Shown piece by piece: positions 12,329 through 17,060 of a stretch of 64,000 bases of DNA. The notes under the pieces are model-generated. The model worked only from the letters and a program-made list of their open reading frames with translations. It ran no database searches and was not told where the DNA came from. The stretch covers positions 1,696,001 to 1,760,000 of the forward strand of contig OY729431.1 of NCBI GenBank assembly GCA_963422395.1. Reading direction: 5' to 3'. A program made the position numbers and the translations under genes. The first letter of the stretch is position 1, and the number at the start of each line of letters is the position of its first letter. Origin of the DNA: Vicinamibacteria bacterium (GTDB lineage: Bacteria; Acidobacteriota; Vicinamibacteria; Marinacidobacterales; Marinacidobacteraceae).

Positions 12329-14533
12329 TCAGGGGGCGTCGAGGTGTTCCCCGAAGAAGCGGCGGACTCTCCTCCAGGCGTCCCGCAGGACATGCCCCCG
12401 GTGGAAGTAGTGGAATTCGCCGGGGTAGGTCGCGAACTCGAAGTCCTTGCCGGCGCGGAGGAGCCGATCGGCGAGGTCGATGGACTCGTGGTAGGGGACA
12501 TTGACATCCGAAGTGCCGTGGAGCACGAGCAGCGGGCGTTCGATGCGATCCACCCGATCGACGGGGGCGCCGAGGTCGTACACCGCGGGGTTTTCCTCTG
12601 GGTCGCCCATGCGGCTCTCCACCCACGGCCCTCCCGGGTCGCGGAACCAGAGGCGGAAATCCCCGACCCCGGCGACATCCACCCCGGCAGCGAACAGCGT
12701 CGGATCGAGGGTGAGGGCCTGCAGGGTCATGAAGCCTCCATAGCTGAGACCCCACACTCCGATCCGTTCAGGATCCACATAGTCGAGTGTCTTCAGATAG
12801 TCCCCCGCAGCGGCGACATCCTGGTAGTCCCTCCCACCGACATCGCGGTAGGACTCCTGTCGGAAATCCCGGCCGTAACCGACGCTGCCCCGATAGTCCG
12901 GCATGAGGACCACATATCCCTCGGCGAGGAGCAACTGGTGGAACGAGTGGTACACCGCGTAGTCCCGACGGATGTGCCAGCCGTCGTAGTTCTGCGCGAT
13001 CCCGTCCCCATGCACCCAGACGACCGCCGGGTGGGTCCCGGATCGATCGAGATCCTCGGGCACGAACAGGTAGCCGGGAACCTGCCCCCCGTCGCGGGCC
13101 GGAAAGCGCAGAAACTCGCCCTCGGTGAAGGTCGCCGGGTCGAGGCTTTCCGGAAGCGAATCGGTGAGTCGTTCGGATTCTCCGGACCCGGCGGTGTCGG
13201 TCAGGAAGAGCTCCGCCGGAGCCCGAGGCCCGGCGTGCTGGAAGACGATCCGACTGCCGTCCGGAGAGAGCCCGCCGTGCTCGGAGGAAAGGTGGAAACC
13301 GTTCCGGGCTGCCGGTTGCACATTCGTCCCGCGCCCGCTGGTCAGACGCCTCGGAACCGCGCCGGGAAGATCCGCGGTATCCACTGCGAAGAGCTGTCGT
13401 TGGCCCGGATGATCCGGGTTGGCATCCCAAACCAGGACGCTCCCGTCCGGAGACCAGGCGTAACGGCGGGCTTCCTGCCCCTCGCCGGTCAGGGAATGCA
13501 CCGCCCCGTCGGCGGCCGAGACCACCAGGAGCTGGTCCCAGCCGGAGGAGTCGTCCAGGAACGCCACCCAGTTCCCATCGGGCGAGGGGCGCGGCTCGGC
13601 GCCGAGGTAGGTCAGACTCCACCATTTTTCGTCTTCGGCTCGATGGAGCGTGCGCAGCGAGCCGTCGCGGAGATCGGCGAGGACCACCGAACGGGTTCGA
13701 TAGTCGGGAGAGACCTGCTGGAAGACCAGCCGCGCGGCGTCGAGCCAGCGGGGGCTGGACTCGAACCCCGGCCCCGCAGCGATCCGCCGCGGCACGCCGC
13801 GGTTCACCACCGGCACCGTCATCAGATCGGGGGGAGTGTCCGGAAAGCGCCGGAACACGAGTTTGTCGCCGGAGATATCGTGGGTCTCGTCCACCGTCTT
13901 CCGCCTCGAAACGGTGTACGCGAGGAAGCGGCCGTCAGGAGACCAGACCGGAGCCGCTTCCGAGCGATCGGGGGTGCGGGTCAGGCGGATTTCGGCTTCT
14001 TCTTCGAGATCCCGGACATGGAGGTCGCCATCGCGGATGAAAGCGAGGTGGCGCGCGTCGTCCGAAGGCGAGAAGCCGGATTCCCCGCCGGGCTCCGCCG
14101 GAAACACCGTTTCGAGCGTCCCCGCGAGATCCGGGTTCATCCGGTAGAGCCGGCCCTGCCAGGTGAAGTGGAGAATCTCGCCGTCCGGTCCCCAGAAGAG
14201 GTCCGCGATCACTTCGTAGGAATCGCCAAAGCGGGTCAACTGCTTCGGCGGCTCTCCGGAACCGGGCTCGACGGAATAGAGATCCATCTGCTGGTTCCGG
14301 TCCCATACGAAGACGATCCGGCGCCCGTCCGGGCTCCATACCGGCGCCGTCGGGTGACGGATTCCCAGGATGTCTTCGAGATGCAGCGAGGGAGCGTCGT
14401 CGGCCGCGCCGCACCCTCCCGAGTGGCTGGCGGCGGCGAGAGCGGTGATCGCGGCGAGAGCAGTTGCCGGGCCGCCGCGCCGGAGAGCGTTCCTCCCCGA
14501 TCGGGGCCTTCGCTTTCGTAACTGTCTTCTCAT
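12329..14533 (-). CDS. S9 family (prolyl oligopeptidase/dipeptidyl-peptidase-like) peptidase
   Basis: WSPDG propeller repeats; DYRGSVGYG; nucleophile motif GLSYGG; HGTSDVNV and GEFH complete the catalytic triad. Exact start uncertain. Confidence 0.92.
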   Translation of the reverse strand: MRRQLRKRRPRSGRNALRRGGPATALAAITALAAASHSGGCGAADDAPSLHLEDILGIRHPTAPVWSPDGRRIVFVWDRNQQMDLYSVEPGSGEPPKQLTRFGDSYEVIADLFWGPDGEILHFTWQGRLYRMNPDLAGTLETVFPAEPGGESGFSPSDDARHLAFIRDGDLHVRDLEEEAEIRLTRTPDRSEAAPVWSPDGRFLAYTVSRRKTVDETHDISGDKLVFRRFPDTPPDLMTVPVVNRGVPRRIAAGPGFESSPRWLDAARLVFQQVSPDYRTRSVVLADLRDGSLRTLHRAEDEKWWSLTYLGAEPRPSPDGNWVAFLDDSSGWDQLLVVSAADGAVHSLTGEGQEARRYAWSPDGSVLVWDANPDHPGQRQLFAVDTADLPGAVPRRLTSGRGTNVQPAARNGFHLSSEHGGLSPDGSRIVFQHAGPRAPAELFLTDTAGSGESERLTDSLPESLDPATFTEGEFLRFPARDGGQVPGYLFVPEDLDRSGTHPAVVWVHGDGIAQNYDGWHIRRDYAVYHSFHQLLLAEGYVVLMPDYRGSVGYGRDFRQESYRDVGGRDYQDVAAAGDYLKTLDYVDPERIGVWGLSYGGFMTLQALTLDPTLFAAGVDVAGVGDFRLWFRDPGGPWVESRMGDPEENPAVYDLGAPVDRVDRIERPLLVLHGTSDVNVPYHESIDLADRLLRAGKDFEFATYPGEFHYFHRGHVLRDAWRRVRRFFGEHLDAP

Positions 14534-14550
14534 CAGGAGACCATCACTTG

Positions 14551-14853
14551 CCGACTCACGCCCGAAGGCGGGACAGCCGCGGGTATTGAAGCCCGGGATC
14601 CCGGCGCGCCCGATCGGGAGCACCGAAGTGGAGGGCGACGGTAGGACCGCCCACACCCTTCTGCGCAGGCGAATCCGCAGGCGAGAGTGTCCCGTTCTGG
14701 CTCCTTGAACGAAGGAAGGAAACGGATGGAGGTGAGTCCGGCGAAACCGAACTCCGGGAGCCGCGCACGGGACGGACGCACCCCGATCAGTTGCGGGAAA
14801 CCGAAGGGGCGCCGGTAGGGTAGCGCACTCTGGACGGCTGTCGAGGAAGTCGG
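14551..14853 (+). ncRNA. Candidate large structured non-coding RNA of unrecognised class
   Basis: Six nested perfect helices, local hairpins with GAAA-type loops and a possible pseudoknot in a non-coding gap (see findings). Confidence 0.55.
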
Positions 14854-14936
14854 AAACGAGCGGAAACGGACGAGGAAGACCGCGGGCGCGTTCGGGACCA
14901 GAATTGCGGAGAGACCCCGGTACCCGCGGAAGCCAG

Positions 14937-17060
14937 ATGCCCGAGCGACCTTCGAAGACGATCTCCGCCTACGAGACGAAGCGGGATTTCGCGCGCACGC
15001 CGGAGCCGCTTCCCGACGCCGCACCTCTCGCTCCCGAGGCGATGGTCGGAACCTCCGGCCGCCGCTTCGTGGTGCACCGGCACGAAGCGCGGCGCCTCCA
15101 CTACGACCTGCGCCTCGAAATGCACGGAGTGCTCCGATCGTGGGCGGTGCCGAAAGGGTTCTCCTGCGACCCGGAGGTCAAGAAGCTCGCGGTGCGGACC
15201 GAGGACCACCCGCTCTCCTATACCCGGTTCGAAGGAGTCATCCCCGAAGGCGAGTACGGGGGCGGAACCATGGTGGTCTGGGACGCCGGACGCTATGAGA
15301 TCACCGAAGGAGGAGAGGATCAGGGTGCGGCCGGCATCGAGGCCGGCAAGCTGGTGCTGCGGCTCTTCGGCCGCAAACTGCGCGGCGCCTGGCACCTCGT
15401 GCGCACGGGGCGCAGCGACGACGAATGGCTGCTCTTCAAGGGACGAGACCGATATGTGCGGCGCGAAGCGGACCGGCAGCCATTCTTCGATCTCGCCGGC
15501 GCGGCGCCGTGGTACGGAGAACCGCCGCCGCTCCCAGTGATCCCCGAAGGAGAGAGTGCACCGTTCAGCGGCAGCGGCTGGATTTTCGAGCCGGAATTGG
15601 AAGGGATTCCCGTTTTCCTCAGCCGGAACGGTGGAACGGCTCTGCTGCGCCGATCCGATGGCGGGACGCTGCTCGCGCTACCCGAAATCCTGTCCGCAGC
15701 CGAGTCTCTGCGCGCCGAGGAGTTCCTCGCCTGGGGCACTCTCGTCGGCGTGGGCGACGCCGAACGGCCCTCGAAGGCTCGGCTCGCAGCGCGGATCGCC
15801 GGAGACGCTTCCATCCACGCTGCGGTCTATCTCGCCGACCTGATCCGCTACGAGGAGTGGGACCTGCGCGCCGTTCCGCTCCTCGAGCGAAAGGAGTTGC
15901 TCTCGACGCTGGTGCCCGGGAGTCCGCACCTGCGGTTCGGCGACCATGTGGCAGTTCGGGGAGAAGAGTTCCACGCCGCCTGCGAAGCAGCGGGGCTGCC
16001 GGGCAGCCTCGCCCGACGGGCCGAGAGTCGGTATCCGACGACGGCGCCCGGCCCGCCGCCTGCAGGTCGCCGGGATTGTCTCCGTATTCCCGCGAATCCC
16101 ACGGGACGACCGGCGCCGGAAGACCACCTGCTCACCGGACTCGCCCGCCAGCGCGCCGCCCGGGACGCCGCCCGGCCGATTCGCTTCTCGAACCTCGACA
16201 AGGTGTTCTGGCCCGACCACGGACTCACCAAGGGGGACCTCGTCCGCTACTACGATCGGGTCGCCGGGCACCTGATCCCCTACCTCCACGAGCGCCCCGC
16301 CCACCTCCTCCGGTATCCCGACGGGATCGGCGGCAAGGCTTTCTACCAGAAAGACCTTCCCGAACATACGCCGGACTGGATCGAGACCGAAGCCATCCCG
16401 TCCGGCCCCCGCCGCGAGACGATTCGGTACCTGGTCGTCAACGACGCCGCGGCCCTGCTCTTCGCGGCCAATCTCGGCAGCATCGACATCCACCCCTGGC
16501 TGTCGCTCCGAACCCGCCGCGACCGGCCCGACTGGGCGGTTTTCGACCTCGATCCGGGCGGGGCCCCTTTCTCGGAAGTGATCCGGCTGGCACGGGCCTT
16601 CGGCAAGGTTCTGCGGGGGATCGGGCTCCGACCCTACCTGAAGACTTCCGGTGCCACCGGACTCCACATCTACGTGCCGATCGAACCCATCTACCCCTAC
16701 GAGATCGTCCGGCAGTTCGCGGAAGCGGTCTCCACCCACATCGCCGGAGAACACCGCGATATCGCGACCGTCGAGCGGACCACTTCCCGCCGGCGCGGGC
16801 GGGTCTATCTCGACTTCTTGCAAAACCGCAGGGGACAGACGGTGGTGCCGCCGTATGCGGCGCGGCCGGTCCCGGCGGCATCGGTTTCCGCACCGCTCGA
16901 TTGGGACGAACTCGACGGGGACCTCCGGCCGGAACAGTTCACGATCCGGAATCTGCCGGAACGGCTCGATCGGATCGGCGATCTCTTCGCGGGAACGCTC
17001 CACGACCGCCAGCCGCTCCTGCCTGCGATTCGGAAGTTCCAGGAACGGTACCTGCCCTGA
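14937..17060 (+). CDS. ligD: LigD-like NHEJ protein: 3'-phosphoesterase, degenerate ligase domain and primase-polymerase
   Basis: Phosphoesterase motifs VVHRHEARRLHYDLRLE, SWAVPKG, EDHPLSY; polymerase motifs NLDKVFWP, TKGDL, RYPDGI, FDLDP, KTSGATGLH, YLDFLQN; central ligase motifs altered. Confidence 0.88.
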   Translation: MPERPSKTISAYETKRDFARTPEPLPDAAPLAPEAMVGTSGRRFVVHRHEARRLHYDLRLEMHGVLRSWAVPKGFSCDPEVKKLAVRTEDHPLSYTRFEGVIPEGEYGGGTMVVWDAGRYEITEGGEDQGAAGIEAGKLVLRLFGRKLRGAWHLVRTGRSDDEWLLFKGRDRYVRREADRQPFFDLAGAAPWYGEPPPLPVIPEGESAPFSGSGWIFEPELEGIPVFLSRNGGTALLRRSDGGTLLALPEILSAAESLRAEEFLAWGTLVGVGDAERPSKARLAARIAGDASIHAAVYLADLIRYEEWDLRAVPLLERKELLSTLVPGSPHLRFGDHVAVRGEEFHAACEAAGLPGSLARRAESRYPTTAPGPPPAGRRDCLRIPANPTGRPAPEDHLLTGLARQRAARDAARPIRFSNLDKVFWPDHGLTKGDLVRYYDRVAGHLIPYLHERPAHLLRYPDGIGGKAFYQKDLPEHTPDWIETEAIPSGPRRETIRYLVVNDAAALLFAANLGSIDIHPWLSLRTRRDRPDWAVFDLDPGGAPFSEVIRLARAFGKVLRGIGLRPYLKTSGATGLHIYVPIEPIYPYEIVRQFAEAVSTHIAGEHRDIATVERTTSRRRGRVYLDFLQNRRGQTVVPPYAARPVPAASVSAPLDWDELDGDLRPEQFTIRNLPERLDRIGDLFAGTLHDRQPLLPAIRKFQERYLP

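What the first reader, a model, noticed from the sequence alone, without database searches (positions are those of the whole stretch)
14551..14853. Candidate novel ~300-nt highly structured RNA directly upstream of ligD
Seen: six perfectly complementary, properly nested long-range helices: CCGACT 14551-56/AGTCGG 14848-53; GACAGCCG 14572-79/CGGCTGTC 14835-42; CCGGCGC 14601-07/GCGCCGG 14809-15; GATCGGG 14612-18/CCCGATC 14782-88; GTCCCGT 14689-95/ACGGGAC 14767-73; GGCTCC 14699-704/GGAGCC 14757-62. Local hairpins branch from them (CGCC-CGAA-GGCG, CGGGT-ATTGAA-GCCCG, GGGCG..CGCCC, CTGCG..CGCAG, CGG-CGAAA-CCG, CGG-GAAA-CCG). A crossing pair AGAGTG 14684-89/CACTCT 14826-31 could form a pseudoknot. 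Unpaired parts are purine-rich on the + strand. It is single-copy in the window, and I find no RNase P, SRP, tmRNA, 6S, group I/II or riboswitch hallmarks. Inference: a multi-junction ncRNA (ribozyme or RNP scaffold). It lies ~80 nt before, and co-oriented with, a ligase-dead LigD, so a joint RNA-protein system is possible but unproven.
Basis: partly seen in the sequence, partly recalled or inferred. Interest (0 to 1): 0.85.

Follow-up and report, generated by a model that had tools for sequence, protein, structure and literature searches.

The report
Conserved small RNA, opposite strand
A conserved, folded non-coding RNA does lie between the peptidase and ligD genes, but it is read from the opposite strand to the one proposed, has its own promoter, occurs in only one family of Acidobacteria, and shows no tie to the LigD protein.

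Summary
The six complementary segment pairs are at the stated coordinates. As a plus-strand fold, 14551-14853 is no better than shuffles (z -1.55). Only the two innermost helices are conserved.

A core (window 14689-14844) is conserved in 21 of 28 genomes of one Vicinamibacteria family. It was found in 0 of 124 other genomes of the class and 0 of 150 sampled from the phylum. It has no Rfam match and no conserved reading frame.

Strand tests favour the minus strand:
- Plus-strand A.C mismatches become G.U pairs on the minus strand.
- 99.0% of 525 cells pair on the minus strand.
- Minus-strand fold z-scores are lower in 14 of 14 cores.

This puts the RNA start near 14810, heading away from ligD towards the S9 peptidase gene.

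The RNA holds an almost invariant 29-nt C/U-rich loop containing the 16S anti-Shine-Dalgarno core CACCUCC.

ligD orthologues, all with a degenerate ligase domain, occur without the RNA in 6 genomes.

Best reading: a new family-specific regulatory RNA, either a small RNA or the peptidase leader. Its function is inferred, not shown.

The parts
14839..14844 (-). -35 hexamer of the RNA's promoter (TCGACA in the window)
   Evidence: at a fixed 16-nt offset upstream of the -10, the hexamer reads TTGACA in 11, TTGACT in 3, TCGACA in 1 (the window) and GCTCCG in 1 of 16 distinct variants. The spacer varies in sequence.
14817..14822 (-). -10 hexamer (TACCCT in the window; TAnnnT)
   Evidence: TAnnnT in 16 of 16 variants (TAATCT, TAGTCT, TAATGT, TATCGT, TACCCT, TAGATT). 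Only positions -12, -11 and -7 are invariant. The consensus scanner did not call it, because it scores 3 of 6 against TATAAT.
14810..14810 (-). Predicted transcription start (inferred, +/- 2 nt)
   Evidence: the 7th base after the -10 is G in 15 variants and A in 1 of 16. The first helix of the RNA follows directly. No experimental start-site data.
14778..14810 (-). 5' hairpin A (outer GC/CCCC-GGGG/GC, inner UCGGUU/AACUGA, loop UCCCGC)
   Evidence: helices 1 and 2 of model R2 pair in 96.3% and 98.2% of cells. 5 pairs vary on one side through G.U and 2 show compensatory changes.
14767..14773 (-).
   Evidence: Invariant in 16 of 16 distinct sequences and pairs with 14689-14695.
14757..14762 (-).
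   Evidence: 100% of cells paired. One sequence (G002) keeps the pair as U.G on this strand, which would be C.A on the plus strand.
14734..14754 (-). P3 hairpin (GAGUUCGG / CCGGACUC, loop UUUCG)
   Evidence: helix 5: 100% of cells paired, 2 pairs with compensatory changes and 4 varying on one side. On the plus strand it carries an A.C mismatch in every variant.
14705..14733 (-). 29-nt C/U-rich unpaired loop, nearly invariant, holding CACCUCC and CUCCUUCC-like runs
   Evidence: Alignments. CACCUCC is also in the 3' end of this genome's 16S rRNA (...GGAUCACCUCCUUUUU). No partner for it was found inside the conserved core.
14699..14704 (-). P2 3' arm (GGAGCC)
14689..14695 (-). P1 3' arm (ACGGGAC); end of the part conserved between genera
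   Evidence: Sequence beyond it diverges between genera.
14534..14688 (-). Window-specific stretch between the core and the S9 start.
   Evidence: Not alignable between genera. Its length in relatives runs from 59 nt to about 415 nt, or about 1 kb where genes are inserted.
12329..14533 (-). S9 prolyl-oligopeptidase-family gene with PD40/DPPIV-N propeller, next gene downstream of the RNA
   Evidence: Pfam Peptidase_S9 1.6e-48, PD40, DPPIV_N. Orthologue positions.
14899..14904 (+). CAGAAT, -10-like hexamer upstream of ligD
   Evidence: CAGAAT or GATAAT lies 15-55 nt before the ligD start in the family upstream regions read, including G003, G005, G008 and G015, which lack the RNA; G010 shows none. 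Promoter role is inferred.
14937..17060 (+). ligD-like gene: phosphoesterase + degenerate ligase remnant + primase-polymerase
   Evidence: Pfam LigD_N 2.6e-40 and LigD_Prim-Pol 3.2e-86, no ligase family. NCBIfam ligase domain matched only over profile 8-173 of 302, 41.8 bits against a cut-off of 227.75. Motif I reads FEPELEG.

Best explanation
The conserved element is a gene for a small structured regulatory RNA on the minus strand. It is not a plus-strand leader of ligD.

A sigma-70-type promoter (-35 at 14844-14839, 16-nt spacer, -10 at 14822-14817) starts transcription near 14810, away from ligD and towards the S9 peptidase gene. The first ~122 nt (14810 to 14689) form a 5' hairpin and then a two-helix stem (P1, P2) carrying a hairpin (P3).

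P1, P2 and P3 hold open a nearly invariant 29-nt C/U-rich strand. This strand contains the anti-Shine-Dalgarno core CACCUCC and is, as a whole, the complement of an idealised ribosome-binding site plus AUG.

Proposed mechanism (inferred): the exposed strand base-pairs with purine-rich translation-initiation regions and blocks ribosome entry. It would act either in trans as a discrete small RNA or in cis on the S9 mRNA that most genomes encode downstream.

What is shown at the sequence level: conservation, non-coding nature, strand, helices and promoter-like hexamers. What is inferred: transcription itself, the 3' end, the targets and the effect.

Rough odds: a minus-strand structured RNA, about 0.8. 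The pairing mechanism, about 0.3. Discrete small RNA versus S9 leader, about even.
For: Conservation:
- The core matches at 75-86% identity in 18 of 24 same-family genomes, while flanking intergenic DNA does not align. Three short matches outside the core (G005, G006:C41, G009:C78) were dropped.
- Model R1 finds one copy in 21 of 28 family genomes.

Non-coding:
- The invariant block is read in three different frames from the look-alike ATG; 1 of the 16 sequences (G002) has no ATG there, and the window's ATG escaped the script's search pattern.
- Indels between blocks are not multiples of three.

Strand:
- On one alignment (A3), leaving out two invariant terminal pairs, the minus reading pairs 728 of 735 cells and the plus reading 687 of 735. 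13 pair positions are A.C on plus but G.U on minus.
- The minus model pairs 99.0% of 525 cells, with 10 pairs varying on one side, 4 with compensatory changes and 16 further pair types. Slid controls reach at most 55.1%.
- The plus model gives 93.8% of 777 cells and 6 further pair types.
- Fold z-scores are lower on the minus strand in 14 of 14 distinct cores, mean -2.23 against -0.11.

Promoter:
- TAnnnT in 16 of 16 variants.
- TTGACA/T at a fixed 16-nt offset in 14 of 16, with a variable spacer.
- A purine 7 nt downstream, immediately before the first helix.

Loop: CACCUCC is shared with the genome's 16S 3' end.

Independence from S9:
- The RNA keeps all helices in G002, where the S9 orthologue is inverted and convergent with it.
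- It is also intact in G007 and G014, where about 1 kb lies between it and S9; in G007 that stretch holds two ORFs on the other strand.
Against: - No expression data: no RNA run is listed for this DNA. Transcription, start site and 3' end are therefore unproven.
- The consensus scanner calls no promoter and no terminator here or in two relatives. No intrinsic terminator follows the core, which sits badly with a discrete small RNA.
- Two invariant G.U pairs exist only on the plus strand (alignment A3 columns 3-95 and 13-84).
- P1 and P2 never vary, so they carry no covariation. Compensatory changes are few: 4 pairs, 5 cells.
- The sequences come from only 5 genera of one family, and the alignments were fitted to the models.
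- Target scans give no site that stands out: duplex energies form a continuum. Near-matches to the loop's complement elsewhere in family genomes carry 2-3 mismatches and are only about twice as common as the reversed-pattern control.
- The window's S9 start has no obvious Shine-Dalgarno sequence for the loop to pair with.
Confidence: 0.5

Rival explanations
1. The minus-strand RNA is only the long structured 5' leader of the S9 peptidase mRNA. It would be a cis-regulator, for example a riboswitch-like sensor, or a Rho-dependent attenuator whose C-rich, G-poor open loop is the Rho loading site.
For: - S9 is the next gene downstream and co-oriented in 18 of the 19 loci examined; in G007 and G014 about 1 kb, holding ORFs on the other strand, lies between.
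- In G006 only 59 nt separate the P1 end from the S9 ATG.
- No terminator-like site follows the core.
- A Rho loading site would tolerate the variable distance.
Against: - In G002 the S9 orthologue is inverted and the RNA runs into its 3' end, yet all helices are kept.
- In G007 and G014 about 1 kb lies between (ORFs on the other strand, read in G007).
- The gap varies from 59 to about 415 nt and holds a tandem repeat in G004, so no fixed expression platform exists.
- A separate conserved TACCAT-containing motif sits just upstream of S9 in most relatives.
- S9 orthologues in G003, G005 and G008 lack the element.
- A Rho loading site would not need a near-invariant sequence.
Confidence: 0.3
2. 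One reading: a ~300-nt plus-strand multi-junction RNA co-transcribed with, or acting together with, the ligase-dead LigD.
For: - The element keeps a constant place about 85-100 nt upstream of ligD in all 17 relatives whose locus reaches ligD, including G002.
- Two invariant G.U pairs fit the plus strand.
- Unpaired parts are purine-rich, and one relative has a GAAA tetraloop on the plus strand.
- The plus strand carries a Shine-Dalgarno sequence plus ATG look-alike in 15 of 16 sequences.
Against: - Plus-strand folds are no better than shuffles: mean z -0.11 over 14 cores, and -1.55 for the full 303 nt.
- Every P3 and most P6 variants carry A.C mismatches on plus that are G.U on minus.
- The 3' third of the 'RNA' shows promoter-type conservation (hexamers fixed, spacer free), not helix-type.
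- ligD has its own conserved -10-like hexamer downstream of the element, also in genomes without it.
- 6 genomes have the same ligD without the RNA.
Confidence: 0.07
3. There is no functional RNA fold. The block is a divergent-promoter and operator region conserved at the DNA level for the S9 and ligD genes.
For: - Part of the block does behave as a promoter.
- P1 and P2 never vary, as protein-binding inverted repeats might.
- It lies between divergent genes in most genomes.
Against: - About 120 nt of near-invariant sequence downstream of the predicted start is far longer than operator sites.
- Hairpins P3 and P6 change sequence and length while keeping pairing, through G.U on one strand only. 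DNA-level constraint does not predict this.
- Minus-strand fold z-scores are negative in 14 of 14 cores.
Confidence: 0.08
4. A cis-antisense pair. A plus-strand upstream reading frame (Shine-Dalgarno + ATG at 14727) precedes ligD, and the minus-strand RNA's loop is its perfectly matched antisense regulator.
For: - The loop is by construction the exact complement of the plus-strand look-alike initiation region.
- That ATG is present in 15 of 16 sequences.
- Dual constraint would explain the near-invariance.
Against: - G002 has AGG in place of the ATG.
- The frame and length of the upstream reading frame are not conserved.
- A ligD -10-like hexamer lies downstream of it.
- No evidence of plus-strand transcription.
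Confidence: 0.05

Closest known systems
Base-pairing small RNAs with C-rich seeds that target Shine-Dalgarno sequences (e.g. RsaE/RoxS of Firmicutes; recalled, not tested by any search)
   Same: A short structured RNA presenting an unpaired, highly conserved C/U-rich tract complementary to ribosome-binding sites. The seed is more conserved than the helices around it.
   Different: - No Rfam family, these included, matches on either strand.
- Different phylum.
- The tract sits in a 29-nt internal loop closed by two invariant helices, not in hairpin loops.
- No intrinsic terminator.
- No targets identified.
Small-RNA genes transcribed divergently from a neighbouring gene with back-to-back promoters (e.g. 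micF/ompC, oxyS/oxyR, gcvB/gcvA; recalled)
   Same: The promoter's -35 lies 55 nt from the -10-like hexamer of the divergent ligD gene. This spacing to ligD is the one constant feature of the locus.
   Different: - No evidence of shared regulation.
- ligD orthologues exist without the RNA.
- ligD is not a regulator.
Riboswitches and other structured 5' leaders of Acidobacteria (e.g. the nadA motif; PMC6859854, search listing and start of abstract only)
   Same: A conserved fold starting right at the predicted transcription start, upstream of and co-oriented with a gene in most genomes.
   Different: - The downstream gene is not constant (G002, G007, G014).
- No expression platform.
- The most conserved part is a long single strand rather than a junction pocket.
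- Restricted to one family.
3' end of 16S rRNA (anti-Shine-Dalgarno sequence)
   Same: Shares the heptamer CACCUCC and a CUCCUU run.
   Different: Only a short motif is shared. The RNA is otherwise unrelated, and the resemblance is a functional lead, not homology.

Membership tests
Any Rfam 15 family (including RNase P, SRP, tmRNA, 6S, riboswitches, raiA, HEARO, large orphan motifs) | Covariance-model match at or near the family's gathering score | tested here: not met
   - 0 matches at gathering score in the whole window.
- 0 at E<=10 in 14350-15050, both strands.
- None at the core in 5 relatives at E<=1; the only row is a chance match elsewhere in L014.
- ARAGORN finds no tRNA or tmRNA.
Trans-acting base-pairing small RNA | Own promoter directly upstream of the conserved RNA | tested here: inconclusive
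   Conserved TTGACA/T, 16 nt, TAnnnT with a purine at +7. The scanner's threshold is not reached and there are no start-site data.
Trans-acting base-pairing small RNA | Intrinsic terminator defining a discrete 3' end | tested here: not met
   No terminator-like site on the relevant strand in window 14350-15050, L007 1300-1800 or L018 1300-1800. No U-tract after P1 in any genus.
Trans-acting base-pairing small RNA | Conserved single-stranded seed | tested here: met
   The 29-nt C/U loop is nearly invariant across 5 genera, while hairpins P3 and P6 vary.
Trans-acting base-pairing small RNA | Conserved complementary target sites | tested here: inconclusive
   The genome-wide duplex scan gives a continuum from -31 to -36 kcal/mol. 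The family-wide pattern scan finds only 2-3-mismatch sites at about twice the control rate.
Riboswitch / cis-regulatory leader | Always upstream of, and co-oriented with, the same gene class | tested here: not met
   S9 is downstream and co-oriented in most genomes. It is inverted in G002 and separated by about 1 kb with inserted ORFs in G007 and G014.
Riboswitch / cis-regulatory leader | Adjacent expression platform (terminator or Shine-Dalgarno-sequestering helix) | tested here: not met
   Sequence after P1 is not conserved between genera. The gap to S9 is 59 to about 415 nt. No terminator found.
Riboswitch / cis-regulatory leader | Ligand binding | not testable with these tools
   Needs in-line probing or similar.
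   Strand tests favour the opposite strand.
   ligD is in 27 of 28 family genomes and the RNA in 21 of 28. Six genomes (G003, G005, G008, G010, G013, G015) have ligD without the RNA. Motif I is degenerate in all 11 orthologues aligned, with or without the RNA.
Small protein-coding gene | Conserved reading frame | tested here: not met
   Three different frames are read across the invariant block. One sequence has no ATG. Indels are not multiples of three.

The most novel reading that the evidence does not exclude
A lineage-specific RNA whose structural scaffold displays a near-perfect antisense copy of a whole translation-initiation region (anti-Shine-Dalgarno + anti-AUG). It would act as a general or regulon-wide mimic of the 16S 3' end that competes with ribosomes for mRNA start sites. 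It may be switched on from a control region shared with the divergent end-joining gene, linking translation shut-down to DNA-break repair or dormancy.
Probability: 0.12. Interest if true: 0.7.

Novelty: new member of a known kind. Interest (0 to 1): 0.42.

Why it matters
If transcribed as predicted, this adds a new, well-delimited RNA family to the Acidobacteriota, a phylum for which my three literature searches surfaced one RNA motif, nadA. Its architecture is unusual: two invariant helices hold open a 29-nt anti-ribosome-binding-site strand.

It also removes a tempting but unsupported story, an RNA partner for a ligase-dead LigD. The case shows how a strand test (G.U against A.C), together with the conservation pattern of a promoter, can reverse a reading made from one sequence.

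The narrow distribution and the lack of expression data limit its present weight.

Tried and rejected
- RNA expression: no RNA holder listed for window 13800-15800. Read laying was not used because the holders are contigs of unstated kind.
- Known RNA families: none.
- Small reading frame on the plus strand (Shine-Dalgarno + ATG at 14727): rejected.
An RNAduplex search in 18 relatives gave strong duplexes everywhere in this G+C-rich DNA and no common register. Hand reading found only patchy counterparts of helix 2.
- Diverged copies upstream of ligD in the RNA-less genera. With filters off, the best result is a 13.9-bit partial match in G008 (E 0.0025 in 5 kb) covering only the 3' hairpin region. 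Nothing credible turned up in G003, G005, G010 or G015.
- Wider homologues:\n - The pattern scan of 185,579 species genomes gave 63 loci. 20 are true (>=117 bits) and all are family members; the other 43 score <=18.6 bits.\n - The metagenome scan reported 112 stretches and listed 80 loci; 2 of the 80 are true and both resemble the largest genus, g2.\n - The class and phylum samples gave none outside the family.
- Promoter/terminator scanner: nothing on the relevant strand.
- Targets of the C/U loop: no stand-out.
- A link between RNA presence and loss of the ligase lysine: rejected, since all 11 orthologues lack it.
- Literature: three full-text searches (listings and starts of abstracts only, no paper opened) showed nothing on an RNA motif at ligD or S9 peptidase genes or in Vicinamibacteria. 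This is no proof that none is in print. Supplementary motif lists of the large RNA-discovery papers were not opened.

Full report
**The observation.** The plus-strand minimum-energy fold of 14551-14853 uses them. That fold is not unusual for this 68% G+C DNA, however. It scores -138 kcal/mol against -129.8 +/- 5.3 for dinucleotide shuffles (z -1.55), and 8 of 100 shuffles fold as well. The reverse strand of the same stretch scores better (z -2.39). The element is single-copy in the 2.9-Mb genome.

**Surroundings.**
- The stretch lies in a 403-nt gap between two divergent genes.
- On the minus strand is an S9-family peptidase with PD40/DPPIV-N propeller repeats (12329-14533).
- On the plus strand is a ligD-like gene (14937-17060) with phosphoesterase and primase-polymerase domains.

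**Conservation.**
- BLAST of the gap against 40 relatives found a ~165-nt core at 75-86% identity in 18 of 24 genomes of the same family, and nothing in 16 genomes of two sister families. I dropped three short matches of 28-39 nt outside the core.
- The rest of the gap does not align between genera, even though the flanking proteins are only ~66-77% identical.
- A covariance model (R1) finds exactly one copy in 21 of 28 family genomes: g2 15/16 (the miss is 66% complete), g5 3/3, g3 1/1, g7 1/1 and the window's own genus; g6 0/4, g4 0/2.
- It finds none in 124 genomes of 18 other families of the class. A second model finds none in 150 genomes sampled across the phylum.
- A pattern scan of one genome for each of 185,579 species gave 63 loci. 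20 are true matches (>=117 bits), all titled Acidobacteria, Vicinamibacteria or Candidatus Marinacidobacterium MAGs.
- A metagenome scan added 2 true matches among the 80 loci listed.

**Not coding, not a known RNA.**
- The plus strand carries a Shine-Dalgarno sequence plus ATG look-alike. From it, the invariant nucleotide block is read in three different frames in different genomes. One genome has no ATG, and indels are not multiples of three.
- Rfam 15 gives no match on either strand in the window or at the core in five relatives. ARAGORN finds nothing.

**Strand.** This is where the reading changes.
- On the alignment fitted to the plus-strand model, nearly every plus-strand mismatch is A.C or C.A, which is a G.U wobble on the minus strand. 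This holds at 13 pair positions, including one in hairpin P3 in 18 of 21 sequences and one in hairpin P6 in 13 of 21.
- Leaving out two invariant terminal pairs that are G.U on plus, the minus reading pairs 728 of 735 cells and the plus reading 687 of 735.
- A model built for the minus strand (R2) pairs 99.0% of 525 cells. 10 pairs vary on one side only, 4 show compensatory changes and there are 16 further pair types. Slid controls reach at most 55.1%.
- The plus model gives 93.8% of 777 cells and 6 further pair types.
- Folding energies agree. In 14 of 14 distinct cores the minus strand has the lower z-score, mean -2.23 against -0.11.
- Caveats: the alignments are model-fitted, and the sequences come from five genera of one family. 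P1 and P2 never vary, so they say nothing either way.

**Promoter.**
- In 16 distinct variants the -10 is TAnnnT in 16. Only positions -12, -11 and -7 are fixed.
- At a fixed 16-nt offset the hexamer is TTGACA in 11, TTGACT in 3, TCGACA in the window and GCTCCG in G002.
- The spacer is free in sequence. The 7th base after the -10 is a purine, followed at once by the first helix.
- Fixed hexamers with a free spacer are what a promoter shows, not what a helix shows.
- The consensus scanner does not call it, because the -10 scores 3 of 6 against TATAAT.
- In the window: -35 at 14844-14839, -10 at 14822-14817, start near 14810.

**Anatomy on the minus strand (window coordinates).**
- 5' hairpin A: 14810-14778.
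- P1: 14773-67 with 14695-89.
- P2: 14762-57 with 14704-699.
- P3 hairpin: 14754-34.
- Unpaired C/U-rich strand, 29 nt: 14733-14705. It is nearly invariant across genera and contains CACCUCC, the core of the anti-Shine-Dalgarno sequence. This genome's 16S rRNA ends ...GGAUCACCUCCUUUUU.
- The 3' arms of helices 1 and 2 lie upstream of the predicted start, and that of helix 3 straddles it. Helix 4 competes with hairpin A. One arm of the proposed pseudoknot lies in the promoter spacer.

**Relation to ligD.**
- The element keeps its place about 85-100 nt from the ligD start in all 17 relatives whose locus reaches ligD.
- It points away from ligD, however. ligD is preceded by its own -10-like hexamer (CAGAAT 14899-14904; GATAAT in g6), also in G003, G005, G008 and G015, which lack the RNA; G010 shows none.
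- ligD is found in 27 of 28 family genomes. Six of them have no RNA.
- The ligase part is degenerate in all 11 orthologues aligned, whether or not the RNA is present. FEPELEG replaces KxDG, and no OB domain is present.
- Ku and an adjacent ligase with an intact KWDGLR motif lie 0.6 Mb away.
- A joint RNA-LigD system is therefore not supported.

**Relation to S9.**
- S9 is the next gene downstream and co-oriented in most genomes. The distance runs from 59 nt (G006) to about 415 nt, and no terminator is seen. This fits a long leader.
- Against that, the S9 orthologue is inverted in G002 and the RNA converges on its 3' end. In G007 and G014 about 1 kb lies between; in G007 it holds two ORFs on the other strand.
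- In all three genomes the RNA is intact.
- Most relatives carry a separate conserved TACCAT-containing motif just before S9.
- S9 orthologues in G003, G005 and G008 have no such element.

**Mechanism.**
- Sequence evidence supports a promoter-driven minus-strand RNA whose helices hold open an invariant C/U tract.
- I infer that this tract pairs with purine-rich initiation regions and blocks ribosome entry, in trans or on the S9 mRNA.
- The tract's near-invariance, while the hairpins vary, is what a seed shows. A Rho loading site would need only C-richness.
- Target scans were uninformative and no RNA data exist. The function remains a hypothesis.

**Comparison and novelty.**
- It works most like small RNAs with C-rich seeds that target Shine-Dalgarno sequences, and like divergently encoded small-RNA genes. 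Both comparisons are recalled, not tested.
- It is a member of no described family.
- Three literature searches (listings only) showed nothing on it.
- I rate it a new member of a known kind. It is of moderate interest because of its narrow range and untested function.

Noticed in passing
window 14937-17060; genome G000:C1:1117827-1119256 (outside the window): The ligD-like protein keeps its phosphoesterase and primase-polymerase domains, but its ~270-aa middle part is a conserved ligase remnant without the motif I lysine or an OB domain, in all 11 family orthologues aligned. Ku and an adjacent ATP-dependent ligase with an intact KWDGLR motif lie elsewhere. End-joining therefore seems split over two loci.
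   Followed up: partly
window 14899-14904; L227, L225, L228, L229: A -10-like hexamer (CAGAAT or GATAAT) lies 15-55 nt before the ligD start in the family upstream regions read, absent in G010. In G005 the S9 ATG and the ligD GTG are only 35 nt apart.
   Followed up: partly
relatives, e.g. L007, L009, L011 (minus orientation, ~40-60 nt before the S9 start); window 14536-14547: A conserved TACCAT core inside a short palindrome (CCGGATACCATCCGG in g2) precedes S9 in most relatives. The window has a similar word (GGAGACCATCAC) in the opposite orientation right next to the S9 ATG. It may be an operator or an S9-proximal promoter.
   Followed up: no
L014 (G004), between the RNA core and S9: About 2.7 tandem copies of a ~115-nt unit fill the gap between the RNA and the S9 gene.
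   Followed up: no
L006 594-1341 (G007); similar in L016 (G014): Two overlapping ORFs (106 and 151 aa), on the ligD strand, are inserted between S9 and the RNA. They look like a small mobile two-gene cassette.
   Followed up: no
L225 300-850 (G015, upstream of ligD): A long array of ~21-nt repeats (GAGCCGAACCGGAGGAC-like units, over 500 nt) lies directly upstream of ligD in one genome that lacks the RNA. Whether it is coding was not examined.
   Followed up: no
g2 loci, ~60 nt after P1 on the minus strand: Within genus g2 a further hairpin follows the core (CAGUC...GACUG, enclosing CCCCG...CGGGG). Hand-read compensatory variants include CAGUU/AACUG, ACCGGA/UCCGGU and GGAU/AUCC. The RNA may therefore be longer than the 122-nt core in that genus.
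   Followed up: partly
L229 214-268 (G008, minus strand, upstream of ligD): A weak partial match (13.9 bits) to the hairpin A/promoter part of model R1 in a genome that lacks the core. It could be a remnant or chance.
   Followed up: no
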